A DNA stretch of 64,000 nucleotides, taken from the NCBI GenBank assembly GCA_052035095.1, contig JBPOHW010000004.1, positions 23,527-87,526 of the forward strand. The letters are read 5' to 3'. The notes beneath the pieces are model-generated. The model did no database searches. It had not been told where the DNA came from and was given only the letters and a program-made list of their open reading frames with translations. Position numbers and translations under genes: made by a program. Source of the DNA: Candidatus Moraniibacteriota bacterium. GTDB lineage: Bacteria > Patescibacteriota > Minisyncoccia > Moranbacterales > UBA1568. Each line of letters opens with the position of its first letter. The stretch's first letter is position 1. Below are positions 10,293 to 57,504 of the stretch, in pieces.

Positions 10293-10308
10293 GAATGGGG
10301 AATGGAGA

Positions 10309-17481: not shown

Positions 17482-17565
17482 GTTGCCTCGACCGAGAAAA
17501 AGAATTTTTCTCATATACGATTACGTAAGATTTCGAAAGATTCTTTTTCTCGGTCTCGGCGTGCA
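17482..17565 (+). repeat. Intergenic long-hairpin repeat element, copy 2 of 4
   Basis: Stem: gcctcgaccgagaaaaagaat / attctttttctcggtctcggc. Loop tcatatacgattacgtaagatttcgaaa, identical to copy 3. Ends with GGCGTGCA followed by a TAAAAAAT -10-like box. Confidence 0.8.
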
Positions 17566-18541: not shown

Positions 18542-18625
18542 GTTGCCGAGACTGCAAAAAAGAATTTTTCTCATATACGATTACGTAAGATTTCGAAAAA
18601 TTCTTTTTTGCAGTCTCGGCGTGCA
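18542..18625 (+). repeat. Intergenic long-hairpin repeat element, copy 3 of 4
   Basis: Perfect 25-bp stem (ccgagactgcaaaaaagaatttttc / gaaaaattcttttttgcagtctcgg) with the same loop as copy 2. Confidence 0.85.
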
Positions 18626-21007: not shown

Positions 21008-21101
21008 GTTGCCTCGACCAAGAAAAAGAATTTTTCTCACACACTCCTCCCGGGCTCGGAGCGAAGTTTCGAAAAATTCTTTTTCTTGGTCTCGGCGTGC
21101 A
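21008..21101 (+). repeat. Intergenic long-hairpin repeat element, copy 4 of 4
   Basis: Stem: cgaccaagaaaaagaatttttc / gaaaaattctttttcttggtctcg. Loop is similar to copy 1 (cactcctcccgggctcggagcg). Followed immediately by a TGATAGAAT extended -10-like box. Confidence 0.8.
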
Positions 21102-21167
21102 TGATAGAATCATCGGGGTAATTTCGTATCATTCTCCATTCTCCATTCTCCATTCTACATTCTCCTT

Positions 21168-26933: not shown

Positions 26934-26980
26934 GGGGCGGATGTGGAAATAGATTTCCCTCCGCCCCTTGAATTTTTTTT
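26934..26980 (+). terminator. Rho-independent terminator
   Basis: Stem ggggcgg/ccgcccc plus an inner ggaaat/atttcc stem, followed by TTGAATTTTTTTT. Confidence 0.6.
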
Positions 26981-27075
26981 GGCGTCTCTTTGGAGGCGTT
27001 TTTTCGTTCTCTTTCTTTTCCCACTTCCTTCGTTCTCTCTTCCATCTTTTGCGCTTCAGGTGCTATGCTTTCGGT

Positions 27076-29178: not shown

Positions 29179-29345
29179 ATTTGAGGCGGAAGTATCTTCT
29201 TTGCGATAATGTGAATGCACTCTCGACATCATCGAAACAAGAATCAGGATAACGATGACGATGAAAAGGGACAAAAAAAGTAGCGAGCAAACGCGACCGC
29301 GCAAGCTCGCGCGGTCGCGCGTGGAGGCTATTCTTGCGGAGAGGG

Positions 29346-32300
29346 CTATGATGATGAAGAATTTCGATTTTTTCTCTTTATCATCGAAACGAGAATCGGG
29401 ATGATGAGGAGGGTGAAGAAGGAGGAGACGGCGAGGCCGAAGATGATGGCGGTGCCGAGGGCGCGCCAGAGCGCGTCGGAGAGGGTGATGGGGACGAGAC
29501 CGAGAATGGTGGAGAAGGACGTGATGAAGATTGCCTCGATGCGGGATTTTCCGGCATCGATGATGCCTTCGGTATATTCGAGACCACTTTCCCAGTTGAG
29601 GTTTATTTTGTCAATGAGGATGATCGCGTTTTTGACGACGATGCCGAAGAGGGCGAGGATGCCGATGAGTCCCGGGAAGGAGAGGGGGACGCCGAAGATT
29701 GCCATCCCGACAAAGACGCCGATCATGGCGAGGGGGAGTGTGGCGAGGACGATCACTGCTTGCGTGACGGAATTGAATTGGATGATGAGGGTTGCCACGA
29801 TGAGGATGATCGCGATGACGAGCGCGTTCAGGATAGATTGCACGGATTCTTGATTTTGCTCGTTCTCGCCGCCGTAGGTGATTGAATAGCCGTCGGGGAG
29901 TCGGTATTCTCCCGCTACTTTCTCTTGGAAAGCGGAGAGGACTTCGTTGGGGCGCGTGCCGGTTTCGACGCCGGAAGAGAGGAGGACGGATCGTTTCTGG
30001 TCGATGCGTGTGATCGATTCGAGCGAGGGCTTGAGCTCGATCGTGGCGAGCTCGCCGAGTCGGACGGTAGCTCCTCTGGCGTTTTTGAATTCGATATTTC
30101 GCACCTCGTCGAGGGTCGGGATTGTGGCGTCATCGAAACGAGCGACGACACTGATTTCGTCGTTGTCGCGGAGGACGGTAGTGATTTCGGTGCCGGAAAT
30201 CGCCATACGAAGCGCGCTTCCGATACCGGTCGCGTCGAGTCCGAAGTAGGCGAGGCGGTTATGGTCGAGGGAGAAGGTATAGTCGGCGGGCGCATTCTTG
30301 AGCGAGGTGCTGATGTTCGTCGTTCCGGGGATATTCGCGAGAATTTGTTTGAGATCGCCGGCGATGCGTTCTATTTCTCGGAGGTCGTCTCCGGAAATTC
30401 GCGCTTCGAAGGATGCGCCTGACGGAGGACCGCCCGCCAAACTGGCAACTCGAATATCGGCGCCGGAAATGGTTTTGAAATCTTCGCGCATTCTGTCGGC
30501 GAGCTCGAAGGAGGTGCGGTTCCGATCGTGTTTGTCGGAGAGCTTGACGGTGATTCCGGCGAGGTGTGAGGCGTTCCCGCCGACGCCTCCCGTTCCATCT
30601 TGGGACGCGCCGGCATTGCCGACTACGGTGGAAAAGTCCACGATTTCCGGATAGCCCAAGAGTCTTTCCTCGACTTTTTGAATGAGGCGGTTGGTTTCTT
30701 CGAGCTTCAAACCCGTCGGCGCTTCGAGGTTGACGAAGATGAGTTCTTCATCGGAGGGCGGGAAGAATTCGGTTGGCACGATACCGAAAACGGGAAGGAG
30801 TACGGCGCCAATGAAAAGCGCGAACGTCCCAAGAAGCACGGTCCATTTCCGTCGCGCGCTCGCAAGGACGCCTCGGAGGAACTTTTCGTAGGGTGGGATG
30901 ATGTGATCGAAGTGAATGACGCCGTGAATGAGGCGATCCTTCCAGGCTGTGTCTTCGCGATTTCCCGCCTCTTTGAGGCGCGCCTTGATGAGTGCGTCGC
31001 TTTCCCATTCGCGCTCGACCAAGGATGTGTTGTTGGTAAGAATGCGATTTCCGTTTTTGAAAAAGAACCAGAGCGCGAGACGAACAATGAGGATAAGCGC
31101 GACTCCCGCAAGCGACGCGCCCCAGATATTTTTTAAGAAAATGCCGTACGCGATAATTCCCGCCAGAGTCGCCAGCGAAATGAAGAACCAGTTTCGCGTG
31201 AAGCGAACGCGCTCGAGGGCGGCGGCGAGCGGATGATTGATCATAAGCGCGATACCGAGCGAGGCGATGAGGGTGACCGTGACGGTGATCGGGATGGATT
31301 TGATGAATTGCCCGATGATGCCGGTCGCGAGAAGGAGCGGCAGGAACGCCCACACGGTGGTGAGGGTTGTCGTTGTGAGGACGACCTTGAAATCACGCAG
31401 AACGAGGAGGACGGCTTCTTCCGGTGTGAATTTGCCGGTACGGAGATATTGCTTGGTCGCGGAGACGACGACGATCGCGTCATCTACAAGGAGTCCCATC
31501 GAGAGGAGGAGGGAAAAGAGCGAGAGGAAGTTCAAGGAAATGCCCGAGAGGAGCATGGTGCCAAATGTAACGAAGAAGACGAGTGGAATGGTCATACCGG
31601 CGATGATCGCCTCTTTGAGTCCCACGACCAAGAACAGTGTCGTCATCACGAGTCCCACGGTGATAAAGAAGTCGCGCGTGAGTTCATCGAAATTCTTGCG
31701 AATCTCTTTGGCGAAATCGACGGTGACGGTCCACTGTGTTTCCGGGGGGAAATTTTCCGACAGGCGTTCCATGGTGCGATTTGCCTCATCAACCGTTTCG
31801 ATGATGTTGCCGCCGGTTCGTTTCACGATGTCGAGGGTGACGGCGTTTTCGGGAGCGGAGCCGTTGATCGAAAGCCTCGAAAGAATCGTGCGTTTTCTGG
31901 CAATTTCTTCAACTTCCGCGATGTCTCGAAGGAGTACGGCGCCGCCGTTTTCGTAGAATCGAATGGGAATATTTCCGAGTTCTTCGGCGGTGAAGAAGCG
32001 GGCGTCGGTACGGAGGGGGTAGGAGAATCGCGCGCCGTCCTTGGCGCCCGCGGGAATGGCGCGATTGGTCGCGGCGATCGCGCGGTTTGCTTCGTCGGCG
32101 GAGATGCCGAGCGCGGAGAGTTTCGCCGGGTCGTAGGAAACGGAAATTTCCCGTTCGTCGCCGCCGGAGACGCGCACTTCGCGGACGCCCTGAATTTTTT
32201 CAAGCTCGTCTTTGGCGCTATCGGCGAGGTCGCGAAGAGCGAGTCCGTTGAGCGAACCCGAGAGGGCGATGGTAAGAATCGGTTGATCATCGAAAGAAAT

Positions 32301-32765
32301 TTCTTTGACGGATGGATCCTCAGCGTCATCCGGCAATTCGCTTTTGATTTCCGAAACGGCATCGCGGAGGCGGCGGATGGCGTCGTCGAGGGGTTCGCTC
32401 GCTTCGTATTCGACCGTGATCGCGGAGAGGGAATTCGCGGAATTCGAAGTGATTTTCTTGATGCCGGAGAGTCCGGCTATTTTCGTCTCTATTTTTTTGG
32501 TGACGAGCTCCTCGACGTCTCCCGGAGAAGCGCCCGGGAAGGGGGTCGCGACAATGGCGATCGGAATTTTGACTTCCGGATTGGATTCGCGCGGGAGCTT
32601 TCCAAACGACCAGAGTCCCCAGAGGGAAATGCCGGCAATGAGGAGGAGGACGACGCGCGGGCGCGTGACGAAAAAGTTGAACGCGCTTTTCCTGAGCTTC
32701 GGATCGAATTCGAGCTTTTCCAAATATTCGGAATCGGAAGAGGGATTGTTGGATTTTGGATTCAT
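29346..32765 (-). CDS. RND-family efflux transporter permease (AcrB/HAE1-like, 12 TM)
   Basis: 1139 aa with the characteristic AcrB architecture, two large periplasmic loops, and conserved TM4/TM10 regions. The ATG is at 32765. Confidence 0.85.
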   Translation of the reverse strand: MNPKSNNPSSDSEYLEKLEFDPKLRKSAFNFFVTRPRVVLLLIAGISLWGLWSFGKLPRESNPEVKIPIAIVATPFPGASPGDVEELVTKKIETKIAGLSGIKKITSNSANSLSAITVEYEASEPLDDAIRRLRDAVSEIKSELPDDAEDPSVKEISFDDQPILTIALSGSLNGLALRDLADSAKDELEKIQGVREVRVSGGDEREISVSYDPAKLSALGISADEANRAIAATNRAIPAGAKDGARFSYPLRTDARFFTAEELGNIPIRFYENGGAVLLRDIAEVEEIARKRTILSRLSINGSAPENAVTLDIVKRTGGNIIETVDEANRTMERLSENFPPETQWTVTVDFAKEIRKNFDELTRDFFITVGLVMTTLFLVVGLKEAIIAGMTIPLVFFVTFGTMLLSGISLNFLSLFSLLLSMGLLVDDAIVVVSATKQYLRTGKFTPEEAVLLVLRDFKVVLTTTTLTTVWAFLPLLLATGIIGQFIKSIPITVTVTLIASLGIALMINHPLAAALERVRFTRNWFFISLATLAGIIAYGIFLKNIWGASLAGVALILIVRLALWFFFKNGNRILTNNTSLVEREWESDALIKARLKEAGNREDTAWKDRLIHGVIHFDHIIPPYEKFLRGVLASARRKWTVLLGTFALFIGAVLLPVFGIVPTEFFPPSDEELIFVNLEAPTGLKLEETNRLIQKVEERLLGYPEIVDFSTVVGNAGASQDGTGGVGGNASHLAGITVKLSDKHDRNRTSFELADRMREDFKTISGADIRVASLAGGPPSGASFEARISGDDLREIERIAGDLKQILANIPGTTNISTSLKNAPADYTFSLDHNRLAYFGLDATGIGSALRMAISGTEITTVLRDNDEISVVARFDDATIPTLDEVRNIEFKNARGATVRLGELATIELKPSLESITRIDQKRSVLLSSGVETGTRPNEVLSAFQEKVAGEYRLPDGYSITYGGENEQNQESVQSILNALVIAIILIVATLIIQFNSVTQAVIVLATLPLAMIGVFVGMAIFGVPLSFPGLIGILALFGIVVKNAIILIDKINLNWESGLEYTEGIIDAGKSRIEAIFITSFSTILGLVPITLSDALWRALGTAIIFGLAVSSFFTLLIIPILVSMIKRKNRNSSSS

Positions 32766-32792
32766 GGGAAATTGTTACTTGTTTGATCTACA

Positions 32793-32979
32793 AAGAAATT
32801 TTGTATTCGGCACGTTCAAGAAATGCTCCGGGGCTTGGTAGTAGCGTCTGTTGGTTTTGGATGGAAATAACCTCCCAAAGAAGCTTTCGTTTGTGGTTTT
32901 CGTAGGTCTGCCCGCCGCTGCGTTAATTTCTTTCTCCCTGCCTTGCCGGCAGACAGGTTAGCCGAATACAAAATTTCTT
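32793..32979. ncRNA. Candidate structured RNA / non-autonomous element, copy A (conserved core closed by a 19-bp perfect stem)
   Basis: Arms aagaaattttgtattcggc / gccgaatacaaaatttctt enclose a core (acgttcaagaaatgctccggggcttggtag...tgatggaaataacctcccaaagaagctttcg) that is ~85% identical to 40316..40400. The arms differ from those of copy B yet remain perfectly complementary (covariation). Strand undetermined. Confidence 0.4.
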
Positions 32980-32992
32980 CTTTTGTACTTCT

Positions 32993-34075
32993 TTATTCTT
33001 CGGATATCTTCATTCCATCCTCGAGTGTCCCCGTGCTTTCTATGATGACAGCGGCGTTTTCCGGAATATCGGCGGAGACGATGCCGGTTTCGCCGGAGAC
33101 GATGATGGAGGTGGCGGATATTTTCTTGGCTTTTTCGTTTTCCGCTACGAAGAAGAACGAGCCCTCTTGGTTGGTGGTGATGGCGGAGAGGGGGAGGAAG
33201 AATGAGGAGGCTTCAGATGCGATTTGGCGAATTTCTATGATGGCGCTCCCGATGGTGCCGGAGGGGATGGAGTCTTTTTCGAGGCGCGCCTCAATGGGGA
33301 ATTTGCCGGTTGCCGGATCGGCGTGCGCGGCGATTGAGGTGACGTGTGCCGTTTTCTCCCGGTTTTCTTGGAGGAGGATTCGCACGGAATCACCAATCGC
33401 GAGCGAGTCGCGAACGCGTTCCGATACTTGGAAGCGCGCCTTTGGAGCGCTTCCTGTGGCGATCTTCGCGAGCATGGTGCCCGGCGTGACGGAGCTTCCG
33501 ACGTTGACGTATTTTTCCGAGATGATGCCGGAGAGAGGCGCGCGGACGGTGGAAGCATCGAGCGCATTGGCGAGGGCTATCTCGGCTTCTTCGAGACGGA
33601 GTCGCGCGAGGTCGCGGTCGAGATAACTCTCTTTGTTGGTGTTCTTCTCGGCGAGGCGTTTCGCTTCTTTGTAGGATTTCCGCGCGGAAGAGACGGCGAT
33701 TTCGGCTTGTCGAATCGCTTCCGATCGGATGCCGCTCTTTGAGAGTATGGAACCGTTGGGATCGGTGATGCGGACGAGTGTGGCGCCCTGCCTGATAGAA
33801 CTTCCCACCTCGAAGCTTGCCGAGGCTATCGTGCCGGAAGTTTCCGCCGTGATCACGGTTTCATTGTCGGCGACAATGACGACGGGGAGACGTTCTTCGG
33901 ACGTTATGCTTTTCAAATCGCCCGCTTTTTTGACCGAGACTTCGAGGGCACGCTCGTCCGCTCCCGCTTCACTCGGTGTTTGTGCGGATTCGTTTTTCCT
34001 TGCGGCAAAGTACCAAAGACCGAAGAGTCCGAGGAGTATAGCCGCGAGAATGAGCGCTGTTTTGGTGCGTATCAT
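32993..34075 (-). CDS. RND efflux periplasmic adaptor (membrane fusion protein, HlyD/AcrA-like)
   Basis: N-terminal TM anchor, coiled-coil hairpin region (RLRLEEAEIALANA...), and beta-barrel/MP domains. Lies upstream of the RND permease on the same strand. Confidence 0.8.
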   Translation of the reverse strand: MIRTKTALILAAILLGLFGLWYFAARKNESAQTPSEAGADERALEVSVKKAGDLKSITSEERLPVVIVADNETVITAETSGTIASASFEVGSSIRQGATLVRITDPNGSILSKSGIRSEAIRQAEIAVSSARKSYKEAKRLAEKNTNKESYLDRDLARLRLEEAEIALANALDASTVRAPLSGIISEKYVNVGSSVTPGTMLAKIATGSAPKARFQVSERVRDSLAIGDSVRILLQENREKTAHVTSIAAHADPATGKFPIEARLEKDSIPSGTIGSAIIEIRQIASEASSFFLPLSAITTNQEGSFFFVAENEKAKKISATSIIVSGETGIVSADIPENAAVIIESTGTLEDGMKISEE

Positions 34076-34171
34076 AGGGAATTGTATTCAAATGAGCAAT
34101 TCGTCAATTTTCCTTGAAAAAGAGAGAGATGTCAAGGCTTGTGGGAAGGATTTTTCTGTGTCAACATTGAA

Positions 34172-37024
34172 ATGTTTCCTGATTTGGTACAAATAGAGCA
34201 TTTTATGGGGATGTTGTGGAAGTTTCTTCGGATGTATTGGGAAGAATGCGCCCTTCTGGTGGCGCTTGTTTTTGCTGTGGGAATTCTTTTGATTCCACAA
34301 AGAACTATTCTTTATTTCTCTTGGCTGTACGTGTCTTTTGTGGCCATTGGTATTGTTTATTCTGTGCGGAAGAAGTTTCAAGAAAGCGTGAAAGAAGCAG
34401 AATGGGGAGAACAAAAAAGACGAAAAGATTCGCCAACATCAATTTTTCTTGATGATAAAGAAATAGAGGATGAAAAACATGATGTTCTTGGCATTGCGGA
34501 AGATGCCAAGCATTTCGGGGAACAGGTTTTGAATGGCGGCGCCGATAATGCCATGATTTTTGGTTTGGATGCGGCGTGGGGGAGTGGGAAGTCGAGTTTT
34601 CTCAACCTCTCTAAGAAACAGGTTTGGGAAACAAAAGAAAACAAAGAAAAGGTTGCGGTCTTTACTTTTCGACCGATACTTTTTGACGCGCGCAAACAGG
34701 ATATTGCGGAGATTTTTATTCGCGAGTTTTTTTCTTTTCTCAAGGAGGAAAGAATGCTTTCCAGAAGGTTGGAAAGCGATAGATGGAAACTTGTGCGCTT
34801 AATAAGTGATGTTTCGATGGGAGGCGATCTTTTTGGTATACGATTTCGCGTTCCTCAAGAATCTTTGGATGAAGTACTCGAGCGAATTCGAAATGAAATC
34901 AAAAAGCTTCCCAAGAAGATCATTGTCATTGTTGACGATCTCGACCGATTGTATGTGGAAGAAGTGAAGGCGATTCTCGGTGTGGTGCGAAATATCTTTT
35001 TTATTCCAAAGATTACTTTTGTTCTGTGCTACGACACGAGCAATATCAATAGTTTTGAATTTCAGAAAAAAGTGGTTCACACCGAATCCGAATCATACGC
35101 CACCTCAAAAGATGATGATGTCAAAAGAAAATTGTATTCTCGTGCTGATCACGAACCCGATAGCCAAAGAATAAACGCCTATCTCGAGAAAATTGTGCAG
35201 GTCAAAAAAACGCTCATTCCCGATAGGGATAAGCTATGGAATTTTTTCGAAAAGAAAGTGAGGGACTATTTTTCCGATGCAGACCTCGTGAATTGCGAGA
35301 CTTTTATTGAAGGAATCAAACCTTTTTTTCAAGAGGAATGCTATCCAAAGTATGCCCCCTACTTGGGGGATATCCGGAAAATAAAAAGAATTCTCAACTT
35401 TATTCGTATTTCCAGATTTCTCAAGTTAATGAAAAAAGACATGCGTGGTCGAGATATTAGTTCGAAATATCTTTTTCAGTTTATTTTGATATATATCAAT
35501 TACCCGCACATTTTTCGAAAAATTTATATTGAGGAAACAAGCGGATCCTCGGGATTCTTTTCTGTTATTTATTGTGATAAGGATAAAGAAGATTGTACTC
35601 CTGCGGGTTTCAAGAATTCGTCACAGTTTCTTGATTTTCTCAAGACGGTTTCTGAAGAACAGAGATTTTTGCTTGAAGAATTATTTCGTGTGCCGATATT
35701 TGATAAATCTGAAATTTTTGAGAGAAGGCAATACGAGGAAGAAATGGAGAAGCCTAAATTTCAGAGATATTCCCCCCTTTTTAATGGGGGATACTTTTCT
35801 CGGATAAACCTGAGGGATTATCTCGAGATTGTTTATGAGGGAAAGTCTATTGACATTTGGTTGCATGATAATTTTCATATCAATAAAATTAAGGAATTGG
35901 AAAATCGGAGTGTTCAAGACATATTTAATGCAACGCCGGAGTATGGTGCGGATATTGGTGAAAAATCTCGCGATATGTTTTTTGGAAAATTGCGGACTAA
36001 AGACGTTCCATTTTCTTCCGCTGAAAAGGTCATCGAATATATCACTCACAATTTGTCTCATTATTCGATGATCAGCGAATTTTCGGGAGTGTATGAGGGA
36101 ATTCGCGCTGGGCTGGTATATCGATTGCTATGGATGCTCGAGCTTCGAGGGTGGGAGGATGAAAAGAGGGAATCATACGAAAATACCGATGAGAATATCC
36201 GAGTTCTCGCGGAGAAAATTTTGGGGAATGAGCAATATCCATCACTGGTGAATACACTTTTTGATTCTGGCGGCAACCCGATTCTCGCGGTCAATGATGC
36301 GACCAAACTCATATACGCGTGCACTGGTACAAGATCAAGTTCTCTTTTCAATGTTCGCCGATCACTTGAAAACTATGCCAAAGAACATTCGATCGATGTG
36401 ATGGAGGCTCTGTCGCGAAAAGCATTTTTGTTTTTCCATAAGCGCATCATTTCCGAGAAGAAGAATTTTCTTCGGGATATCGCCGATATGGACGAGGCGC
36501 TTCTCTTGGGTGATTTCTCGGAGGCTATTTGGAAAAAATTTGAGGAAAAGAAAGATGGTCTTGAAGAGGAGGTGGCAAAAATAAAAAACAGCCTTGCTTC
36601 CGCGCTCTTGTTTCGGTTTGCGCGCGATGAGGAGCGATCAATGGGGAAGTATCTCTTTGATGATACGAAGAAAATATCGGAAGTTATGCGAGAGTATCTT
36701 CTTGAGATATGTTTCAACGTTGATGCGGATATGCGAAACGCGGAACTTTTTCTGAATTTCGCACTAGCGTCTTTCGGCGATGAATCAACCGGGTTTCAAG
36801 AGTGGGTTCCGGATGTTTCTCTTTTGGAAAAAACCCTCGGTCCTGATCGTTTGCGGAGCTATTGGCTGGAGAGGGGCGAAGTCATCAAAAAATGCGGGCG
36901 CTCGCTCGCACTCGCCTCGCCGGATAAAAAAGTGGTGACGTATAACTATGTCGCCACCTACCGGAAAGACATGGAGAAACTTTTTGAGAAACTCGATGAG
37001 CGGTTTTTGAAGGAAGGAGAGTAG
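34172..37024 (+). CDS. KAP-family P-loop NTPase with N-terminal transmembrane segment and long C-terminal region (~950 aa); AT-rich gene
   Basis: KAP-type Walker A GLDAAWGSGKSSFLN. Walker B hhhhDDLDR (IIVIVDDLDRL). Two TM helices precede the P-loop. The start is uncertain: the track gives TTG 34139; ATGs occur at 34172, 34205 and 34211. GC is markedly lower than in the surrounding genes. Confidence 0.65.
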   Translation: MFPDLVQIEHFMGMLWKFLRMYWEECALLVALVFAVGILLIPQRTILYFSWLYVSFVAIGIVYSVRKKFQESVKEAEWGEQKRRKDSPTSIFLDDKEIEDEKHDVLGIAEDAKHFGEQVLNGGADNAMIFGLDAAWGSGKSSFLNLSKKQVWETKENKEKVAVFTFRPILFDARKQDIAEIFIREFFSFLKEERMLSRRLESDRWKLVRLISDVSMGGDLFGIRFRVPQESLDEVLERIRNEIKKLPKKIIVIVDDLDRLYVEEVKAILGVVRNIFFIPKITFVLCYDTSNINSFEFQKKVVHTESESYATSKDDDVKRKLYSRADHEPDSQRINAYLEKIVQVKKTLIPDRDKLWNFFEKKVRDYFSDADLVNCETFIEGIKPFFQEECYPKYAPYLGDIRKIKRILNFIRISRFLKLMKKDMRGRDISSKYLFQFILIYINYPHIFRKIYIEETSGSSGFFSVIYCDKDKEDCTPAGFKNSSQFLDFLKTVSEEQRFLLEELFRVPIFDKSEIFERRQYEEEMEKPKFQRYSPLFNGGYFSRINLRDYLEIVYEGKSIDIWLHDNFHINKIKELENRSVQDIFNATPEYGADIGEKSRDMFFGKLRTKDVPFSSAEKVIEYITHNLSHYSMISEFSGVYEGIRAGLVYRLLWMLELRGWEDEKRESYENTDENIRVLAEKILGNEQYPSLVNTLFDSGGNPILAVNDATKLIYACTGTRSSSLFNVRRSLENYAKEHSIDVMEALSRKAFLFFHKRIISEKKNFLRDIADMDEALLLGDFSEAIWKKFEEKKDGLEEEVAKIKNSLASALLFRFARDEERSMGKYLFDDTKKISEVMREYLLEICFNVDADMRNAELFLNFALASFGDESTGFQEWVPDVSLLEKTLGPDRLRSYWLERGEVIKKCGRSLALASPDKKVVTYNYVATYRKDMEKLFEKLDERFLKEGE

Positions 37025-37147
37025 TCAACTTTCTAATTTTTCGAAGTATAGGGGTACTTTCTCATGTTGAGAACGGAGCGGGTTTCCATTGACATTCAAT
37101 TGGCTTTTGTTTTAGTATCGTTTCAGGTAAAGAGGAGGTGAAGTGTC

Positions 37148-37468
37148 ATGTCGAAACAAGAAGATGTGCGTGTGCGGGTTAAGATAGATGGCGATATCAG
37201 AGAGGCTCTTGAAAATATTTGCGGAGAGGAGTTCACGCGAGTATTTGAAAAGACCGCTTCGGATGCGGCCGCAGTGTTCGTCCGCGGGTTAATTGCGTCT
37301 CTTTTGGAAAGCGCTCTTGCTCACAGGAGGGAGGGTTCGGACTCGGACATAGTTCAAGGTATGATTGATAGATATCGTTTAGTTGCGCTTGCGATGACAA
37401 CTTCATCGGAGTCTGTCACTCCTCATGGGGCAGTATCGGGACGCGAGTATGATCGTCGACTTTCTTGA
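37148..37468 (+). CDS. Small acidic hypothetical protein (106 aa)
   Basis: Strong SD AGAGGAGGTGAAG before the ATG. No recognisable family. Confidence 0.5.
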   Translation: MSKQEDVRVRVKIDGDIREALENICGEEFTRVFEKTASDAAAVFVRGLIASLLESALAHRREGSDSDIVQGMIDRYRLVALAMTTSSESVTPHGAVSGREYDRRLS

Positions 37469-37547
37469 AATTCGAACTTTCAATGGGATCAAAGAGATAA
37501 AAAGAAACTGACATTTCCCTCCACAGAAAATTGCGGAGGGAATTTTA

Positions 37548-37883
37548 TTGTCAGAATGTCGTTATCTTTTAGAAAGGAATATGCCTTCCAAACAATTTCA
37601 AAAGCGCGTTGAGGATTTTGTGTGTGGGCACTGCGGAGCGACGGTTTCCGGGAATGGCTATACCAATCACTGCTCGAAGTGTCTCTGGAGTCTCCACGTG
37701 GATATTTTCCCGGGCGATCGCGCCGCGCGGTGCGGGGGATTGATGGAACCGGTCGGGGCGTTTCTCGATCATGGGGAATGGCGCCTCACACACCGGTGCG
37801 TCACCTGTGGACACGCGAAAAAAAATCGCCTCTCAAATGAGGACGATATGGAGATGCTTTCGAAACTATTCGAAGGGAAATAA
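37548..37883 (+). CDS. RNHCP-domain zinc-ribbon protein (111 aa)
   Basis: Cys clusters CGHCG...NHCSKC...RCGG...CVTCGH; the YTNHCSKC motif matches the R-N-H-C-P family signature. The TTG start has a GGAGGG SD 8 nt upstream. A terminator-like hairpin (ccctcaaagaaaag/cttttctttgaggg) follows. Confidence 0.5.
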   Translation: MSECRYLLERNMPSKQFQKRVEDFVCGHCGATVSGNGYTNHCSKCLWSLHVDIFPGDRAARCGGLMEPVGAFLDHGEWRLTHRCVTCGHAKKNRLSNEDDMEMLSKLFEGK

Positions 37884-38611
37884 AAAGCCCTCAAAGAAAA
37901 GTATGGCTTGGGGAAGCTTTTCTTTGAGGGAGGAGGTCACGGTGCTGCGGCCTCTTGCTTGGTGGCTTCACGAGCTCTTCAGTGATTGCCGGTTTGGCGA
38001 TGTGAAGTTTATGCTCATGAAGCCAGTGTGAATAACAACGTCTCGGAGACTTTCCAAGAGAAGGGGGATTTTTTTAATCCATTTTCCCCATCCTTCTTTG
38101 GAGAGTTTTTCTATGAAAATAACCTGTATCTCCGAGACGTATCCCTTTTGGGTTTCCGAAGTTTCGAAAACCCGGAATTGGTCGGGCGGTTATGAGCCAC
38201 GCTTCGCGCTTTTGGCTGCGTGGTATTGCGAATCCATAACCGCCCTTAATACTGCGCGAGGAATATGTCGTTGGGGTTGGGAACCCCGTTCCTCGTTTAT
38301 CGATCGAGTTTCTGTTACCAGAGTTTTTATTTTGAGTCGCTACCCTGGCGAGCGACTGATCCGGCCAAATTATGTCGTGCCGTTGTAACGCTTCATAAAG
38401 GGGATCCTTTGCGTCGTTTGACGACGAAGTAGATCGTGTTTTTCGAACTCGACAAACAAGTTATGCTATATCGAGGTATCGAAATTCCTTGTGCCGTCGG
38501 CTTTCCTAAATCGTTCGCATGTTGTCATGCAAACTTTTCTGTTTTCGCTCGCCGCTACTTACAGGATTCAGACTTTCTTTCGGCATTGTTAAGGAACCTC
38601 TTAAACATTTT

Positions 38612-39880
38612 CTACACTTCTTTTGTTTCCGTGTCAAGCGGGAGGGGATTTCGCCACTGCCAGGGGTGATTTGGCACTTTGAAAAATTCGGCGTTGTCGG
38701 GTGCGCTTTTTTCGAGTTTGTAGCGGAGAGACTGAACCGTTTTCCCTCGGGGGTCGCGGAGTTCGAGGTATTGGCGAGTGTTACCGAGAGTGAAGGCAGC
38801 GTATTTCGCGGTGAGTTTTTTTGAGGCGCCGGGTTTGATGACGAAGTCTTTGGTGATGGTGTGATTGACGAATTTCTTGGTCGTGCGTTTGGATTTGGTC
38901 GCGATTTTCCAGCCTTTCAAATTCACTTCTTTTTTGGAGCGATTTTCGATAACGAGGTATTCGTTTTTCGTGTCTTTTCCTTCGGGATTGGGGACGAGGG
39001 AAGTGACGCGGACTTTTGGCGCTTCATATTTTTTAATCTCGACGCGAAAGGTTTTGGTAATATCGGCGATGCCGTCGGTCGCGGTTAGGGTCACCGTGTA
39101 GCGTCCCTTCTTCGTGAAGGTGTGCGAAGTTTCTTTTATGTAGCTTCTGTGCCCATCGCCGAAATTCCAAGTAACCTTGGTTGGGTCGCGATCAAGGTCG
39201 GTGACTTTGGTCGAGAAGGAGAGGGGGATGCCGACGAAGCCTTGTTTTGGAATCTTGGTTTTCGTCGACGGGTCATTGCCGAAACGATTGATCTCGCCGG
39301 GTGTGAGGAATTTGGTGTTGCGCCACCGCGTGCCGTCTCGGGCGAGAGTGATGTTTTCGCGCGCGGTTTTCCAAGAAACGGAGTCTCTTGCGGCGTCGCA
39401 TGAATCTTCGAGCGTGACGGTTTCCGCGGTATTGTTCATCGCAAAAGTAAATTCGGTACGAAAGATGACCAGGAACGCGCCGGCGGAGATGGTTGTCCGC
39501 GTCGGAAACGAAAATTTTCCGGTTTTGGAGGCGTCACGAAGCGTCCATCCGGAGATATCGATGTCGTTTTCGCTTGTATTTTCGAGCTCGATGAACTCGC
39601 CTCGCGACTCATCTCCCGTTGGATTCGCCAGTACTTCGGAGAGGAGGATACGATGAATGGTGTTTCCGCACCGCTCTTGGTTATCTTGATTCTCTGCCCG
39701 GGATATTGCCGGGGACGCAAGTGCGATCGTTCCGAGGAGAAGGAATGCGGTCGCTCGTATTTGAATGTGTCGTACCAATTGTATGGAGAATTTCGGTTGG
39801 TGAGGCTGAGACATAGGAGAGTTCGGTGAAATGCGGATGATTCGGGACTTCGGCATTTTTACTGTGCGGGATAGTAGCAC
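38612..39880 (-). CDS. Secreted LTD–PKD–LTD protein (two lamin-tail domains flanking a PKD domain)
   Basis: Signal peptide (RATAFLLLGTIALASPAISRA). LTD motif ILLSEVLANPTGDESRGEFIELENTSENDIDISGWTL. PKD VTWNFGDGHRSYIKETSHTFTKKGRYTVTLTATDG. Second LTD VTSLVPNPEGKDTKNEYLVIENRS...LKGWKI. The start is uncertain (GTG 39880, or ATG 39856 / 39814). Confidence 0.65.
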   Translation of the reverse strand: MLLSRTVKMPKSRIIRISPNSPMSQPHQPKFSIQLVRHIQIRATAFLLLGTIALASPAISRAENQDNQERCGNTIHRILLSEVLANPTGDESRGEFIELENTSENDIDISGWTLRDASKTGKFSFPTRTTISAGAFLVIFRTEFTFAMNNTAETVTLEDSCDAARDSVSWKTARENITLARDGTRWRNTKFLTPGEINRFGNDPSTKTKIPKQGFVGIPLSFSTKVTDLDRDPTKVTWNFGDGHRSYIKETSHTFTKKGRYTVTLTATDGIADITKTFRVEIKKYEAPKVRVTSLVPNPEGKDTKNEYLVIENRSKKEVNLKGWKIATKSKRTTKKFVNHTITKDFVIKPGASKKLTAKYAAFTLGNTRQYLELRDPRGKTVQSLRYKLEKSAPDNAEFFKVPNHPWQWRNPLPLDTETKEV

Positions 39881-39949
39881 TCATTTCGGGTTTGTCAATA
39901 AGCGTGCTATACTGCGAGTTGCATCGATGTAACGCGAAATATTTTTTGT

Positions 39950-40285
39950 ATGACTGAAACGCAAAAGGAATCAAAGAAAGAAGCGAGGTCGTCGTGGCTG
40001 TCGATTGTGCTCGATCTCGCGTTTCGGCACGCGCGGGAGATTGTAGGGGGCGCGCTCGCGATCGCGGGGACGATCGAGAACGACGTGCGCGCGTTTGTAG
40101 TCAAGTTTGTGCGGGATATGGTCTTGGGCATCGTGCTTCTCTTTATCGGGCTCGGGTTTATCGTGTTTGGTGTCGGCGTGATGCTGGTTGAGGTGCTTCA
40201 CTTGGGACCGTCCGCGGGACCGGTGGTGGTGGGCGTGTTTTTTGTCGCGATGGGTGCCATTGTTTTTTTGTTTTCTCGACGATAA
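39950..40285 (+). CDS. Small membrane protein, putative holin-X-like (Phage_holin_3_6 / DUF1469-like)
   Basis: 111 aa with an amphipathic N-terminus and two TM helices (VLGIVLLFIGLGFIVFGVGVMLV; VVVGVFFVAMGAIVFLF). Adjacent to a DUF883 gene, as is typical for this family. Confidence 0.4.
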   Translation: MTETQKESKKEARSSWLSIVLDLAFRHAREIVGGALAIAGTIENDVRAFVVKFVRDMVLGIVLLFIGLGFIVFGVGVMLVEVLHLGPSAGPVVVGVFFVAMGAIVFLFSRR

Positions 40286-40295
40286 TTTTTTTGCA

Positions 40296-40464
40296 TCCGA
40301 ACTTTCGTATTTGTCACGTTCAGGAAATAGCTTCGGAGCTTGGTAGGTGAGTTTTTTCGTTACTGATGGAAATAACCTCCCAAAGAAACTTTCGCTTCAA
40401 GTATATTTGAGTTTGCTCGCTCCTCCGTGTATTTCCTTCTCTTAGACAAATACGAAAGTTCGGA
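40296..40464. ncRNA. Candidate structured RNA / non-autonomous element, copy B (conserved core closed by a 20-bp perfect stem)
   Basis: Arms tccgaactttcgtatttgtc / gacaaatacgaaagttcgga. Core shares acgttcaRgaaatRgcttcggRgcttggtag...tgatggaaataacctcccaaagaaRctttcg with copy A. Confidence 0.4.
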
Positions 40465-40497
40465 CTGTTCTAATTTTTAATTTTTTAAAAAAATCAT

Positions 40498-40848: not shown

Positions 40849-41763
40849 ATGGCGACTCTTTTCAAGAATCCGTGGGCGTGGCTTCTCGTATTGTTTTTGG
40901 TCATTGTGGCGGGGATGGGGCTGTGGCTGTTTGGAGGGAGATTTGAATCGGCGGAGCAGACAATATTCAATGAACAGGGAGCAATGAATAATGAACAGGG
41001 AGCAATGAACGATGGGCAGAAAGAGAGGAAGGAAGAAAAACAAGAGAAGCTTTCGGAGGAAATTTCGGAGGAGATTGTGAGGCAATTGGAAGAGGGAAAC
41101 GGGGTGCCGGGAGAGGATGGGGGGCAAAATGATCAATTACCAATTACCAATGATCAATCGGGAACGAAGAATGAGCGGGAAGTAGAGAGCAATGAACAGG
41201 GAATAGAGAACAATGAACAGGGAACGGTGGACAGGGAGAAGAATAATGAGGAAGGAGGGTTGGAAATTGAAAATCGAACATTGAAAATTCAGGATGTCAT
41301 TGTAAACCGATTGGTGTCGTGGGGGTTTGCGGAGATGAGTGGGAGAAAGATTGATACTATTGTGATCCACTCGACCTACAATGCGCTTGGGGGCGATCCG
41401 TTTTCGGTGGAGAAAATTATCGGTATCTACAAAAGCTATGGCGTGTCGCCACATTATTTGATAGCACGGGACGGGATGGTGTATCGATTGGTCGAGGAAA
41501 AGAGTGTCGCGTATCATGCTGGGGACTCCGTGATGTTGGATGGGCGAAAGAATGTGAACGATTTTTCAATCGGGATTGAAATTATCGGGAAAGATGATGG
41601 GAGTCCGAGCGACGAACAGTATGTGTCGCTCGAAAAGTTGATTGCTGATATTAAAAGTCGAAACGATATCAATCATGTTGTGGGTCACAGCGATATCGCG
41701 CCGGGACGGAAAACCGATCCGTGGGGATTTAAGTGGAAGGAAATTGGGGGGAAAGAGTTGTAA
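40849..41763 (+). CDS. Membrane-anchored N-acetylmuramoyl-L-alanine amidase (Amidase_2/PGRP fold, AmpD-like)
   Basis: N-terminal TM, a low-complexity NEQG-repeat linker, and a catalytic domain with zinc-ligand motifs (IDTIVIHSTY...; AYHAG; VGHSDIAPGRKTDP). The track start at 40831 is TTG; ATG is at 40849. Confidence 0.7.
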   Translation: MATLFKNPWAWLLVLFLVIVAGMGLWLFGGRFESAEQTIFNEQGAMNNEQGAMNDGQKERKEEKQEKLSEEISEEIVRQLEEGNGVPGEDGGQNDQLPITNDQSGTKNEREVESNEQGIENNEQGTVDREKNNEEGGLEIENRTLKIQDVIVNRLVSWGFAEMSGRKIDTIVIHSTYNALGGDPFSVEKIIGIYKSYGVSPHYLIARDGMVYRLVEEKSVAYHAGDSVMLDGRKNVNDFSIGIEIIGKDDGSPSDEQYVSLEKLIADIKSRNDINHVVGHSDIAPGRKTDPWGFKWKEIGGKEL

Positions 41764-41794: not shown

Positions 41795-42103
41795 ATGGAT
41801 ACACAACAAAAATTTACTCTTCTTTTTCATGTCGAAGAAACAGCGACGGACGTTGTTTTGTCGCGTGGCGGAGAAGAAGTTGAGCGCGTGCGCATCGAGT
41901 CGAATCGGGAATTGCTGGAGAGAATTTTGCCGGCGATCGACGGGCTTCTTTTGAGGTGGAAGATTGCGCCGAGAGATGTTTCAGACATTCGTGTCGAATC
42001 GGAACTTCCGGACGGCTACTCGTCGCGGCGCATCGCCGAGACGGTCGCGAAGGCGTGGAAACTGGGACGCAATGAACAAGGAAAAATGAAGAATGTGGAA
42101 TGA
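41795..42103 (+). CDS. Hypothetical protein (102 aa)
   Basis: ATG ORF directly downstream of the amidase. No family recognised. The C-terminus is encoded by GAATGAA-type heptamer repeats. Confidence 0.3.
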   Translation: MDTQQKFTLLFHVEETATDVVLSRGGEEVERVRIESNRELLERILPAIDGLLLRWKIAPRDVSDIRVESELPDGYSSRRIAETVAKAWKLGRNEQGKMKNVE

Positions 42104-42196
42104 AGAATTGAGAATGTAGGGGAGTGGTATTGACAAGAAAAAGTTTTTCGGTTATTATTTTTTTAGTTTTCTTAACATAGGTCGGAGGAATTTCCA

Positions 42197-44478: not shown

Positions 44479-45309
44479 ATGGAAACAACGCAAGTCGCGA
44501 TCTTCAAGGAAAAGAAAGTTCGGAAAGTTCTCCATGGTGGCGAGTGGTGGTTTTCGGTGGTTGATGTTTGCGGGGTTTTGACGGACAGTATTGATGCCGG
44601 CTCGTACTGGCGGAAACTTAAGCAAAGACTTGAGGAAGAGGGGAGTGAAGTCGTGACATTTTGTCACAGGTTGAAGTTACTGGCACCGGACGATAAGATG
44701 CGTGAAACTGACTGCGCTGACCCGGAAGGGATTTTCCGTATTATCCAGTCCATTCCGTCGCCGAAAGCTGAGCCGTTCAAGCGGTGGCTTGCCAAAGTTG
44801 GCTATGAACGGGTGCAAGAAATAGAAAATCCGGAACTCGCGACCAAGCGAACTCGCATGCTCTACAAGTTGAAAGGCTATTCGGAAGATTGGATCGAGAA
44901 ACGCATGCGTGGCATCGCGATTCGCGAGGAGCTCACGGATGAATGGAAGAAGCGCGGCGCGCAGGAGCGGAGAGATTATGAAATTTTGACCGCGGAAATT
45001 TCCAAAGCGACGTTTGGCGTGACGCCGGGGCAGTACAAGAAATTGAAAGGTCTGAAACGCGAAAATTTACGCGATCACATGGATGATTTCGAATTGATTT
45101 TTTCCATGCTGGGAGAGCGATCGACGACGGAAATTCATCGAACGGAAAATTCTCGCGGTTTACCGAAATTGAAAGACGATGCTAGAGCCGGTGGCGCGAT
45201 CGCTGGCGGCGCGCGGAAACAACTCGAAAAGCGCCTCGGTCGCTCGGTAGTGTCGGAAAAGAATTTCAAACAGCTTCATAGAAGCCGAACAGAAAAGCTT
45301 CATTCCTGA
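44479..45309 (+). CDS. Bro-N domain protein (DinD / phage antirepressor-like)
   Basis: N-terminal Bro-N motif (VRKVLHGGEWWFSVVDVCGVLTD). The C-terminal region is similar to DNA-damage-inducible protein D-like proteins. Confidence 0.6.
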   Translation: METTQVAIFKEKKVRKVLHGGEWWFSVVDVCGVLTDSIDAGSYWRKLKQRLEEEGSEVVTFCHRLKLLAPDDKMRETDCADPEGIFRIIQSIPSPKAEPFKRWLAKVGYERVQEIENPELATKRTRMLYKLKGYSEDWIEKRMRGIAIREELTDEWKKRGAQERRDYEILTAEISKATFGVTPGQYKKLKGLKRENLRDHMDDFELIFSMLGERSTTEIHRTENSRGLPKLKDDARAGGAIAGGARKQLEKRLGRSVVSEKNFKQLHRSRTEKLHS

Positions 45310-45335
45310 TTCTTCATTCTTAATTCTGGTTTGTT

Positions 45336-47629: not shown

Positions 47630-47646
47630 AGAATGAAGAATGAAGA

Positions 47647-54950: not shown

Positions 54951-54971
54951 AGCTGTTTGTTCGATAAAATC

Positions 54972-55090
54972 AGGACGTACGCGTTTGGCGCAGTTCGAGG
55001 AAAACGCGAGGAACGGAGTAAGCTGTATACGCCATACAGCGTCAAGTACCGGAGCATTTGACGAAGAAATGCGCCAAACGCGTACGTCCT
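54972..55090. promoter_or_regulatory. Long inverted repeat (21-bp perfect arms, 77-nt interior with a nested hairpin) in the nrdD upstream/leader region
   Basis: aggacgtacgcgtttggcgca ... tgcgccaaacgcgtacgtcct, with an internal gctgtatacgccatacagc hairpin. Lies 22–140 nt upstream of the nrdD start, between divergent genes. Confidence 0.5.
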
Positions 55091-55339
55091 AAAAACTTGA
55101 TTTTTGGGGAAAAGAAAAACCGTGGATATAGTGCTCCCCCACGGAGTGCGCGTTTCCGTTTCGCGCCTTCTCATTATCTTCCAAAGTTTCGAACTCGTAA
55201 AGTTTCCTTTGGTGGAGGGAAAAGTGGTATACTATTTTCCAGTATCGAGTAGTCAGTAGCGAGTAGTTGGTAAAGAGTGCCAATTGAAAGTTATCACGCT
55301 CTCTATCATCTCCAGTCTAAATTTTTTATTCCTTTTCTT

Positions 55340-57466: not shown

Positions 57467-57504
57467 AAATGAAAAATTAAAAATGAAAAATTCTGGAGAA
57501 GAAC

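What the first reader, a model, noticed from the sequence alone, without database searches (positions are those of the whole stretch)
32793..40464. Two copies of a ~170–190-nt element with a conserved core and copy-specific, perfectly complementary ~20-bp terminal arms (stem covariation)
Copy A (32793..32979) and copy B (40296..40464) share a core (acgttcaRgaaatRgcttcggRgcttggtag…tgatggaaataacctcccaaagaaRctttcg). Their terminal arms are completely different in sequence, yet each pair is perfectly self-complementary (aagaaattttgtattcggc/gccgaatacaaaatttctt versus tccgaactttcgtatttgtc/gacaaatacgaaagttcgga). Classical MITEs conserve their TIR sequence; here only the pairing is conserved. That pattern is the hallmark of selection on an RNA closing stem (6S-like rod, or another structured ncRNA). 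Copy A sits oddly between the membrane-fusion and RND pump genes of what should be one operon.
Basis: seen in the sequence. Interest (0 to 1): 0.7.

Follow-up and report, generated by a model that had tools for sequence, protein, structure and literature searches.

The report
Mobile hairpin repeat with covarying arms
The two copies belong to a previously undescribed family of ~170-190-nt hairpin-forming repeats scattered between the genes of Moranbacteria (tiny uncultured CPR bacteria). The ends of each copy keep pairing through matched double mutations, and the middle stays more conserved than silent sites of neighbouring genes, so this is a mobile-element-like repeat that is kept by selection, not a 6S-type RNA gene.

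Summary
The arms pair perfectly, 19 bp in copy A and 20 bp in copy B. They are homologous (about 65% identical) rather than "completely different", and all six differences are compensated.

I recovered 12 full copies from this window and from related Candidatus Moraniibacteriota contigs. 97% of predicted pairs form. 13 of 19 arm pairs and 5 inner pairs show double changes, which none of 500 shuffles matched.

No Rfam family matches, 6S included. The element is multi-copy and breaks short-read assemblies. It is present or absent at orthologous gene junctions: the MFP-RND junction is occupied in relatives with 95%, 64% and 62% MFP identity, and empty (4-40 bp) in relatives with 82%, 55% and 53%.

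At three orthologous sites the core is 85-94% identical while four-fold synonymous sites of the flanking genes are only 52-79% identical. That indicates purifying selection in place.

Best reading: a MITE/REPIN-like non-autonomous hairpin repeat, now mostly inherited vertically. Its rod structure, most likely in co-transcribed RNA of the G/T-rich strand, is under selection. Whether selection acts on RNA or on single-stranded DNA, and what the element does, remain unresolved. It is a new variant of a known kind, of moderate interest.

The parts
32789..32983 (+). Copy A of the type-1 element (covariance-model hit, 185 bits). It lies antisense to the MFP-RND operon that it interrupts.
32793..32811 (+). 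Copy A 5' arm, AAGAAATTTTGTATTCGGC.
   Evidence: I11, 100% complementary
32961..32979 (+). Copy A 3' arm, GCCGAATACAAAATTTCTT.
32812..32936 (+). Copy A conserved asymmetric core. It holds the inner helices AAGAAAU/AUUUCUU and GGGGC/GCCSC, the GGUAG/CUGCY helix, and the invariant GAAAUAACCUCCCAAAGAA block.
32937..32957 (+). Optional 21-nt GC-rich mini-hairpin module (CCTGCCTTGCCGGCAGACAGG) nested just before the 3' arm. It is absent from the 95%-related orthologous copy L024 and from L002, but present in L010, L013b, L039 and L041.
40293..40467 (+). Copy B of the type-1 element (175.6 bits). It is in sense orientation between a 111-aa membrane protein gene and a DUF883 gene.
40296..40315 (+). 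Copy B 5' arm, TCCGAACTTTCGTATTTGTC.
   Evidence: I10
40445..40464 (+). Copy B 3' arm, GACAAATACGAAAGTTCGGA.
54967..55095 (-). Shorter type-2 relative, 129 nt. It has 25-bp arms and the same basal layout (…TTTGGC / AAATGCTCCGG / CTCCGTT / GCCAAA…) but a different apical part. It lies 17 nt upstream of nrdD.
   Evidence: (38.4 bits, E 2e-7)
29346..32765 (-). RND pump gene, immediately downstream of copy A on the operon strand.
32993..34075 (-). Membrane-fusion protein gene, immediately upstream of copy A on the operon strand.

Best explanation
The two copies belong to a family of non-autonomous, hairpin-forming intergenic repeats of Candidatus Moraniibacteriota. In origin the family resembles MITEs or REPINs.

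A unit of about 170-195 nt has at some time been inserted into very short gene spacers. Most copies have since been inherited vertically.

Each copy folds into a rod. The rod has a 17-23-bp terminal stem formed by the two ends, an internal loop, two short inner helices, and an asymmetric, sequence-conserved apical part.

What is shown:
- The stems are kept by compensatory double substitutions.
- Core and pairing are conserved in place far beyond neutral expectation.
- The element is gained or lost as a discrete unit.

What is inferred:
- Nearly every copy fills a spacer of 200-330 bp that leaves little room for a promoter of its own, so the element is co-transcribed with its neighbours.
- The selected molecule is mainly the RNA of the G/T-rich strand. 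That strand forms extra G.U-rich helices and is followed by a U-rich tail.
- In the mRNA the ~20-bp perfect duplex would act as a cis processing, stability or insulation module. A double-strand-specific RNase such as RNase III needs about two helical turns, which matches the constant stem length.

The precise cellular role is not established.
For: - Family and structure. 12 full copies were found, from this window and from L002, L009, L010, L013 (two copies), L028, L033, L036, L039 and L041. 97.0% of 624 pair cells form a standard pair. 19 of 52 pairs have double changes, against a shuffled mean of 8.6, and 0 of 500 shuffles reached that. Slid controls gave 41-55% pairing.
- Compensation at orthologous sites. 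Copy B and L036 share locus-specific arms that differ by one compensated pair. An A.C intermediate in L036 is resolved to A-U in copy B. L002/L010 and L009 differ by several compensated pairs between the same mreB and glycosyltransferase genes.
- Constraint in place. Core/arm identity compared with four-fold synonymous identity of the flanking genes: window-L036 94/95% against 61-79%; L010-L009 87/75% against 62-66%; window-L028 85/65% against 52-56%.
- Mobility. The MFP-RND junction is occupied in relatives with 95%, 64% and 62% MFP identity. It is only 4, 29 and 40 bp long in relatives with 82%, 55% and 53% identity. The second site is empty in L033 (a 17-bp spacer with conserved flanks) and in L035. 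Short-read contigs end inside the element.
- Strand. Helices 54-58/126-130 and 107-113/119-125 are 96.7% paired on the + strand, mostly through G.U, against 32-54% in slid controls. By my count they would be about 43% paired on the other strand.
- Precedents. MITEs fold into long RNA stem-loops, are co-transcribed and affect mRNA stability (PMC3184786). REPINs show compensatory changes across their hairpin (PMC3116915).
Against: - There is no transcript evidence.
- Mismatches in the terminal stem show no strand preference. On the + strand there are about 3-4 G.U against 4-5 A.C, so the arms alone fit DNA-level pairing or pairing on both strands.
- The + strand of the whole window is G- and T-rich, the leading-strand skew. 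That could produce G.T pairs on this strand without RNA selection.
- With the arms removed, the interior folds no better than shuffled sequence (z from +0.9 to -3.1). Its strong sequence conservation is therefore not explained by structure.
- The copy at the MFP-RND junction is antisense to the operon in all three lineages. There the G.U helices could not form in the mRNA.
- No target-site duplication, no matching autonomous element and no transposase were found.
Confidence: 0.5

Rival explanations
1. A purely selfish DNA-level element. A single-stranded DNA hairpin of the G/T-rich strand, which is exposed on the lagging-strand template, would be the substrate of a tyrosine HUH transposase (RAYT or IS200/IS605-like) encoded elsewhere in the genome. 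Arm complementarity would then be kept because only hairpin-forming copies transpose, or by template switching at quasi-palindromes during replication, which copies one arm onto the other.
For: - The arms are almost perfectly Watson-Crick, and their mismatches show no G.U bias.
- Both type-1 copies in the window have their structured strand on the leading-strand sequence, including copy A, which opposes the local genes.
- Sites are present or absent as discrete units and no target-site duplication is seen, as in the IS200/IS605 and REPIN families.
- Small GC hairpins are nested inside copies.
- REPINs show the same kind of compensation.
Against: - Copies at orthologous loci are far more conserved than synonymous sites, including locus-specific arms. 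Selection for transposability does not preserve individual resident copies.
- The outermost arm positions, where a transposase would cut, are the least conserved.
- No transposase was found among the 40 window ORFs scanned against Pfam.
- Mismatch intermediates persist in several lineages, so correction is not instantaneous.
Confidence: 0.25
2. A family of genes for a free-standing structured RNA. Candidates are a trans-acting small RNA, an RNA-protein scaffold, or a new self-cleaving ribozyme. The closing stem would define the ends of the molecule, and the invariant unpaired blocks would form the active or binding surface.
For: - The core has a conserved sequence, with many invariant nucleotides in predicted loops, and variable but compensated stems.
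- Some helices are strand-specific and G.U-rich.
- Every copy is followed by a U-rich tail on the same strand.
- The element is more conserved than synonymous sites.
Against: - No Rfam family matches, and in particular no 6S, ribozyme or sRNA model, at E<=10.
- The repeated unit contains no promoter-like site and the flanks are locus-specific.
- Copies sit 9-33 nt from the next start codon, and the stop codon of the preceding same-strand gene, where there is one, lies about 9-19 nt before the hairpin. This packing suits co-transcription better than independent genes.
- The CCUCCC block cannot be an anti-Shine-Dalgarno seed, because this genome hardly uses Shine-Dalgarno sites. The block also varies (CCACCC, CCUCGC).
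- The type-2 relatives lack the whole apical block.
Confidence: 0.15
3. A small hydrophobic protein gene, for example a type I toxin whose mRNA 5' and 3' ends pair. One + strand frame (…DGNNLPKKLSFVVFVSLLAPPLISFS…) is open in most copies.
For: The frame is open in 11 of 12 copies, and the variable stretch before it has a constant length. Amino-acid replacements are slightly more conservative than in column-permuted controls (31 of 500).
Against: - There is no conserved start codon or ribosome-binding site, and the stop position varies.
- A 1-nt insertion breaks the frame in L036.
- Minimum changes per codon position are 30/18/24, so third positions are not the most variable. The synonymous count does not exceed the null (280 of 500).
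- Two frames of the opposite strand are also open, because of strand composition.
- The other candidate ORF, MEITSQR…, loses its ATG in four copies.
- The type-2 relatives lack the region.
Confidence: 0.04

Closest known systems
REPINs (REP doublets forming hairpins, mobilised by RAYT transposases)
   Same: Both are short non-coding repeats in extragenic space that form a long hairpin. Both show compensatory changes on the two sides of the hairpin (PMC3116915). Both persist for a long time with largely vertical inheritance, and neither shows an obvious target-site duplication.
   Different: REPINs have invariant 16-mers at both ends and a variable spacer. Here the outer ends vary and the asymmetric centre is conserved. 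This element is about twice as long. No RAYT was found, though only 64 kb of this genome could be searched. There is no sequence similarity to E. coli repeats.
ERIC / IRU and Correia (NEMIS) type bacterial MITEs
   Same: Both are imperfect palindromes of 100-200 bp in transcribed intergenic regions, in either orientation, folding into long RNA stem-loops. Length variants arise from internal insertions or deletions. Both show presence/absence between relatives. These MITEs are reported to affect mRNA processing and stability (PMC3184786).
   Different: Those families keep a recognisable terminal-repeat sequence across copies, and Correia elements have TA duplications. Here only the inner ~9 bp of the arms are conserved, and no duplication is seen. 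No sequence similarity was detected to E. coli genomes, plasmids or phages. The host is a CPR bacterium, for which my literature searches returned no description of such repeats.
6S RNA
   Same: Both are about 180 nt and rod-like, with a long closing stem formed by the two ends.
   Different: 6S RNA is usually encoded by one gene, or two in some bacteria, has a large central bubble, and is recognised by Rfam models. This element is multi-copy and insertion-polymorphic, occurs in both orientations, and scores nothing against Rfam 6S models.

Membership tests
6S RNA | Match to the Rfam 6S covariance models (closing stem, central bubble, terminal loop). | tested here: not met
   No hit at gathering score in the window. 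No 6S hit at E<=10 in permissive scans of either copy.
6S RNA | One gene (rarely two) per genome at a conserved locus. | tested here: not met
   Three family members lie within 64 kb, and two within 7.7 kb of L013. The element is present or absent at orthologous junctions.
MITE (miniature inverted-repeat transposable element) | Short, non-coding and multi-copy. | tested here: met
   Copies are 169-213 nt. 12 full copies were found at 7 different loci. The coding tests were negative.
MITE (miniature inverted-repeat transposable element) | Terminal inverted repeats whose sequence is shared by all copies and by a parent insertion sequence. | tested here: not met
   Arms are 48-95% identical between copies and the outer ~10 bp are the most variable. 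No parent element or transposase was seen among 40 window ORFs.
MITE (miniature inverted-repeat transposable element) | Target-site duplication flanking each copy. | tested here: inconclusive
   No consistent direct repeat was found. At one site, T-runs lie on both sides of the insert when compared with the empty site of L033. At the MFP-RND site none is visible.
MITE (miniature inverted-repeat transposable element) | Insertion polymorphism between related genomes. | tested here: met
   Two orthologous junctions are occupied in some relatives and reduced to 4-50 bp in others.
REPIN / RAYT system | Hairpin with compensatory changes, in extragenic space. | tested here: met
   compare PMC3116915.
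REPIN / RAYT system | Two inverted REP units with invariant end sequences. | tested here: not met
   The ends are the least conserved part, and the centre is asymmetric and conserved.
REPIN / RAYT system | A single-copy RAYT (Y1 transposase) gene in the same genome, flanked by the repeat. | not testable with these tools
   Only 64 kb of this genome is available. None of the 40 ORFs scanned is a transposase.
Type I toxin-antitoxin locus | A conserved small ORF with start signal and coding-type substitution pattern. | tested here: not met
   and the frameshift in L036.

The most novel reading that the evidence does not exclude
The element is a new class of mobile structured RNA that has been domesticated in CPR bacteria. 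On this reading, the invariant unpaired blocks (ACGUUC, GCUCC, UUGGUAG, GAAAUAACCUCCCAAAGAA) form a catalytic or protein-binding core, for instance a new self-cleaving ribozyme or the RNA partner of an unknown protein. The long closing stem is then only the scaffold that every copy must keep. The high conservation in place would reflect a host function carried out at many loci.
Probability: 0.13. Interest if true: 0.8.

Novelty: new variant of a known kind. Interest (0 to 1): 0.5.

Why it matters
CPR bacteria have tiny, tightly packed genomes of about 1 Mb, and very little is known about their non-coding repertoire. This work documents a repeat family in which three things can be shown from sequence alone:

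- clear compensatory evolution of a 20-bp stem;
- a core more conserved than silent sites of the neighbouring genes;
- gain or loss of the element as a discrete unit.

The conservation pattern is inverted relative to classical MITEs and REPINs. Here the ends vary and the asymmetric centre is conserved. That makes the element a good test case for how hairpin repeats persist: by host benefit, by transposition competence, or by replication-driven palindrome correction.

In practice, the element breaks short-read assemblies of these organisms at predictable places. The covariance model built here can be used to map it.

At least one more hairpin family in the same genomes behaves in the same way, so the phenomenon may be general in this lineage.

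Tried and rejected
- Rfam at gathering score on the window, and at E<=10 on both copies. Nothing relevant was found; the best hits were 14-18 bits to unrelated snoRNA and miRNA models.
- tRNA/tmRNA scan: none.
- Sigma-70 promoter and intrinsic-terminator scans around both copies: nothing inside the element.
- The 14-codon ORF MEITSQR…. It looked attractive at first, because the stop codon sits at a conserved position. It was rejected because the ATG is lost in L013b, L028, L033 and L036.
- The longer + strand ORF: rejected on codon-position and synonymous-change tests and on a frameshift.
- An anti-Shine-Dalgarno role for CCUCCC: rejected because this genome almost never has a Shine-Dalgarno motif and the motif itself varies.
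- Arms derived from the target, that is, insertion into a pre-existing palindrome. This was rejected because all arms, including those of type 2, align to one ancestral arm, and the empty site of L033 holds nothing like them.
- An alternative apical hairpin (UUUUGGAUGG…CCUCCCAAAG): several copies break it.
- Similarity to plasmids, phages, E. coli genomes and viral contigs: none.
- Extending the source genome beyond the window by exact-protein look-up: two attempts, not on record.
- Of the 23 exact-match loci from the two big scans, 18 were chance or unrelated hits.
- Looking for further copies with filters off in 77 kb of related loci: none beyond those already known.
Full report
OBSERVATION

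Copy A has arms at 32793-32811 and 32961-32979 (19 nt). Copy B has arms at 40296-40315 and 40445-40464 (20 nt). Both arm pairs are 100% complementary.

The copies align end to end at 81% column identity. Core identity is 75% and arm identity 65%. The 20-mer GGAAATAACCTCCCAAAGAA occurs exactly twice in the window, against 0.01 expected.

The arms are not unrelated sequences. They align position for position and differ at six positions, and each difference is matched by the complementary change in the partner arm.

Either strand of either copy folds into a rod. The energies are -59 to -62 kcal/mol, with z-scores of -3.3 to -6.9.

MORE COPIES AND THE ORGANISM

No Rfam family reaches its threshold anywhere in the window. 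Permissive scans of both copies gave only noise.

An exact-word scan of species-representative genomes found one true copy, L002, in a metagenome-assembled genome (MAG) labelled Bdellovibrionales. A scan of metagenomes found three more loci: L009, L010 and L013. A second copy turned up 4.2 kb away in L013.

Homologues of the membrane-fusion protein are named Candidatus Moraniibacteriota by NCBI. The source is therefore a CPR (Candidate Phyla Radiation) bacterium.

A covariance model built from seven copies then found further copies:
- in contigs fetched through MFP homologues: L028, L033/L034 and L036;
- as truncated copies at the very ends of seven short-read contigs (L024, L026, L027, L029, L030), which means the assemblies break in the repeat;
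- as a weaker hit at 54967-55095 on the minus strand (38 bits).

That weaker hit is a 129-nt relative, here called type 2. It has the same basal layout and a different apical part.

Translating the A-rich strand and searching the protein collection recovered three ORFs that gene callers had placed over further copies. Two of these gave the new loci L039/L040 and L041.

In all there are 12 full type-1 copies at seven different loci. There are also two type-2 copies; one sits at a further locus and the other shares a junction with type 1.

STRUCTURE AND COVARIATION

On the 12-copy alignment, 97.0% of 624 pair cells form a standard pair. 19 of 52 pairs show changes on both sides. No shuffle out of 500 reached the observed values. 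Sliding the partners by 1-3 columns drops pairing to 41-55%.

- The terminal stem carries most of the signal: 13 of 19 pairs covary.
- The helix AAGAAAU/AUUUCUU has three covarying pairs. In L033 it is extended to 11 perfect pairs by further changes on both sides.
- The helix GGGGC/GCCCC has compensated changes too. Copy B has GGAGC/GCUCC, whereas its orthologue L036 still has the A.C intermediate.
- Two further helices (54-58/126-130 and 107-113/119-125) are built largely from G.U pairs. They are 96.7% paired on the + strand, against 32-54% in slid controls. By my count they would be only about 43% paired on the other strand.

There are caveats. The consensus structure was derived from these same sequences. 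With the arms removed, the interior is no more stable than shuffled sequence. The non-canonical pairs in the arms are split evenly between G.U and A.C. Finally, the + strand of the whole window is the G- and T-rich leading strand, which could by itself enrich G.T pairs.

The strand assignment is therefore suggestive, not proven.

MOBILE OR RESIDENT? BOTH

The MFP-RND junction (site 1) is occupied, always in the same antisense orientation, in the window and in relatives with 95%, 64% and 62% MFP identity.

The same junction is short or different in other relatives:
- 4 bp in the 82% relative L037 (TAA-ttcc-ATG);
- 29 bp in the 55% relative L035 (MFP P0009) and 40 bp in L036 (MFP P0011, 53-55% identical);
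- an unrelated 271-bp spacer in the 50% relative.

The junction between the 111-aa membrane protein gene and the DUF883 gene (site 2) also varies:
- type 1 in the window and in L036, with almost identical locus-specific arms;
- type 2 in L028;
- no element in L033, which has a 17-bp spacer with conserved flanks;
- no element in L035.

The element is thus gained or lost as a discrete unit. I could not find a consistent target-site duplication.

Small GC-rich hairpins are nested inside some copies. A 21-nt module is present in copy A but absent from its 95%-related orthologue. It is also present in L010 but absent from the otherwise identical L002, and it occurs nowhere outside the element. L036 carries a different 41-nt hairpin.

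Resident copies are nevertheless under constraint. In three orthologous comparisons the core, and in two of them the arms as well, are clearly more conserved than four-fold synonymous sites of the flanking genes:
- window against L036: core 94%, arms 95%, synonymous sites 61-79%;
- L010 against L009: core 87%, arms 75%, synonymous sites 62-66%;
- window against L028: core 85%, arms 65%, synonymous sites 52-56%.

Selection for transposability cannot preserve an individual resident copy. Either the host benefits from the copies, or the copies correct one another by gene conversion. Gene conversion could explain the cores, and the patchy distribution of the 21-nt module hints at it. It cannot explain the locus-specific arms shared by copy B and L036.

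CONTEXT

Copies nearly fill the spacer they occupy. Where a gene on the same strand precedes the copy, its stop codon lies about 9-19 nt before the hairpin. The next start codon lies 9-33 nt after it, and 70 nt after it in L041.

The neighbouring genes have nothing in common. They include mreB and a glycosyltransferase, an HlyD-type adaptor and an ABC ATPase, a GH130 enzyme, ubiA, nrdD, and the RND operon.

At co-directional sites the G/T-rich strand is sense at four sites and antisense at one, which is not significant. Divergent sites carry no information on orientation.

None of the 40 window ORFs scanned against Pfam is a transposase.

WHAT IT IS NOT

- It is not 6S RNA or any other Rfam family.
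- It is not a tRNA-like gene.
- It is not a protein gene. The short MEITSQR ORF loses its ATG in four copies. The longer open frame has no conserved start, shows 30/18/24 changes at codon positions 1/2/3, has no excess of synonymous changes, and is frameshifted in L036.
- The CCUCCC block is not an anti-Shine-Dalgarno element. This genome shows almost no Shine-Dalgarno motifs, and the block varies in L028 and L033.
- It is not related by sequence to anything in the plasmid, phage, E. coli or viral-contig collections.

INTERPRETATION

The best-supported picture is a hairpin-forming, non-autonomous repeat of MITE/REPIN type that has become a stable resident of Moranbacteria genomes. Its rod structure is maintained by compensatory evolution.

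I favour an RNA-level, cis-acting role in the operon transcripts that must run through it (confidence about 0.5). The reasons are these:
- the tight packing leaves no room for a separate promoter at most sites;
- the G.U-rich helices form on one strand only;
- every copy is followed by a U-rich tail on that strand;
- the stem length is constant at roughly two helical turns, which is what double-strand-specific RNases require;
- there are precedents in ERIC and Correia elements (PMC3184786).

The main rival (about 0.25) is a DNA-level hairpin serving single-strand transposition, or maintained by template switching. It is favoured by the strand-neutral arm mismatches and by the REPIN precedent (PMC3116915). 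It is disfavoured by the conservation of resident copies and by the fact that the outermost arm positions are the most variable.

A small-protein gene is unlikely (about 0.04).

NOVELTY

Hairpin repeats with compensatory changes are known. What is new here is a family in a CPR lineage with the reverse conservation pattern (variable compensated ends, conserved asymmetric centre) and demonstrable constraint in place.

My literature searches returned no description of it. I rate it a new variant of a known kind, with interest 0.5.

Noticed in passing
window 8848-8934, 17485-17560, 18545-18620, 21011-21096; also L013 582-618 and 2776-2859, L010 4808-4886, L036 14310-14393: A second, unrelated hairpin-repeat family. 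It has 26-bp A/T-rich arms framed by TTGCC…GGCGTGCA. One copy sits in each spacer of the gene row from the giant protein through the ABC ATPase and MacB permease to the CHASE4 sensor. Its arms also differ between copies by compensated changes, so the behaviour seen in the studied element may be general in these genomes.
   Followed up: partly
window 54967-55095 (minus strand); L028 about 1035-1160 (minus strand): Shorter type-2 relatives of the studied element, with 25-bp arms and a different apical part. The window copy sits 17 nt upstream of nrdD. The L028 copy occupies the very junction that holds a type-1 copy in the window.
   Followed up: partly
window 27851-28033: A 183-nt imperfect palindrome (81-nt arms, 74% complementary) with ends gtcattcccgcgaaggcgggaatcc. 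It lies inside the long ORF 26968-28590, whose Wzy_C domain starts just after it. It may be another inserted repeat, in or between genes.
   Followed up: no
window 10283-10316, 10999-11027, 11068-11095, 21130-21165, 42071-42116, 45298-45327, 47616-47674, 49967-50005, 51061-51087, 57460-57492: Tandem heptamer repeats (AGAATGA, GAATGGA, CATTCTC, AATTACG; 4-8 units) at many gene junctions, often directly before start codons. Related 21-nt repeats lie inside the amidase gene at 40969-41224. Their purpose is unknown.
   Followed up: no
window 32937-32957; L036 about 5156-5196: Small GC-rich hairpins nested inside copies of the element. The 21-nt module is present or absent between near-identical orthologous copies (copy A against L024; L010 against L002) and is never found outside the element. 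L036 has a different 41-nt hairpin inserted after ACGT.
   Followed up: partly
whole window: There is a strong strand asymmetry. GC skew is +0.10 to +0.22 and T exceeds A on the + strand throughout, including across the minus-strand RND operon. Almost none of 40 start codons is preceded by a Shine-Dalgarno-like motif.
   Followed up: partly
window 60490-60533 and 29276-29335; L035 13657-13793: At 60490-60533 there is a perfect 21-bp hairpin with an A-run before it and a T-run after it, which is the shape of a bidirectional terminator. A GC-rich palindrome lies directly after the RND gene, and it recurs after the RND gene of the distant relative L035.
   Followed up: no
L031 11096-11366 and L032 1412-1682: In the complete Moranbacteria genome CP064994.1 the MFP-RND spacer is 271 bp. 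It holds no copy of the element but contains about 20-nt tandem repeats (cattctcattcaatcgaata). In that record the RND gene is also called as two ORFs.
   Followed up: no
L036 8547-13152 compared with window 29346-34075: L036 shares near-identical flanks and element arms with the window at the DUF883 site. Its MFP, however, is only 53-55% identical, and its MFP-RND junction is empty. The efflux operon may have been replaced by a divergent copy in one lineage.
   Followed up: no
L003, L008, L018, L021, L022, L023: The 18-mer used for the metagenome scan also hits an unrelated, highly conserved sequence that recurs in six metagenome contigs (…acaagacGGAAATAACCTCCCAAAGggcgagccacaagtcag…). It was not identified.
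   Followed up: no
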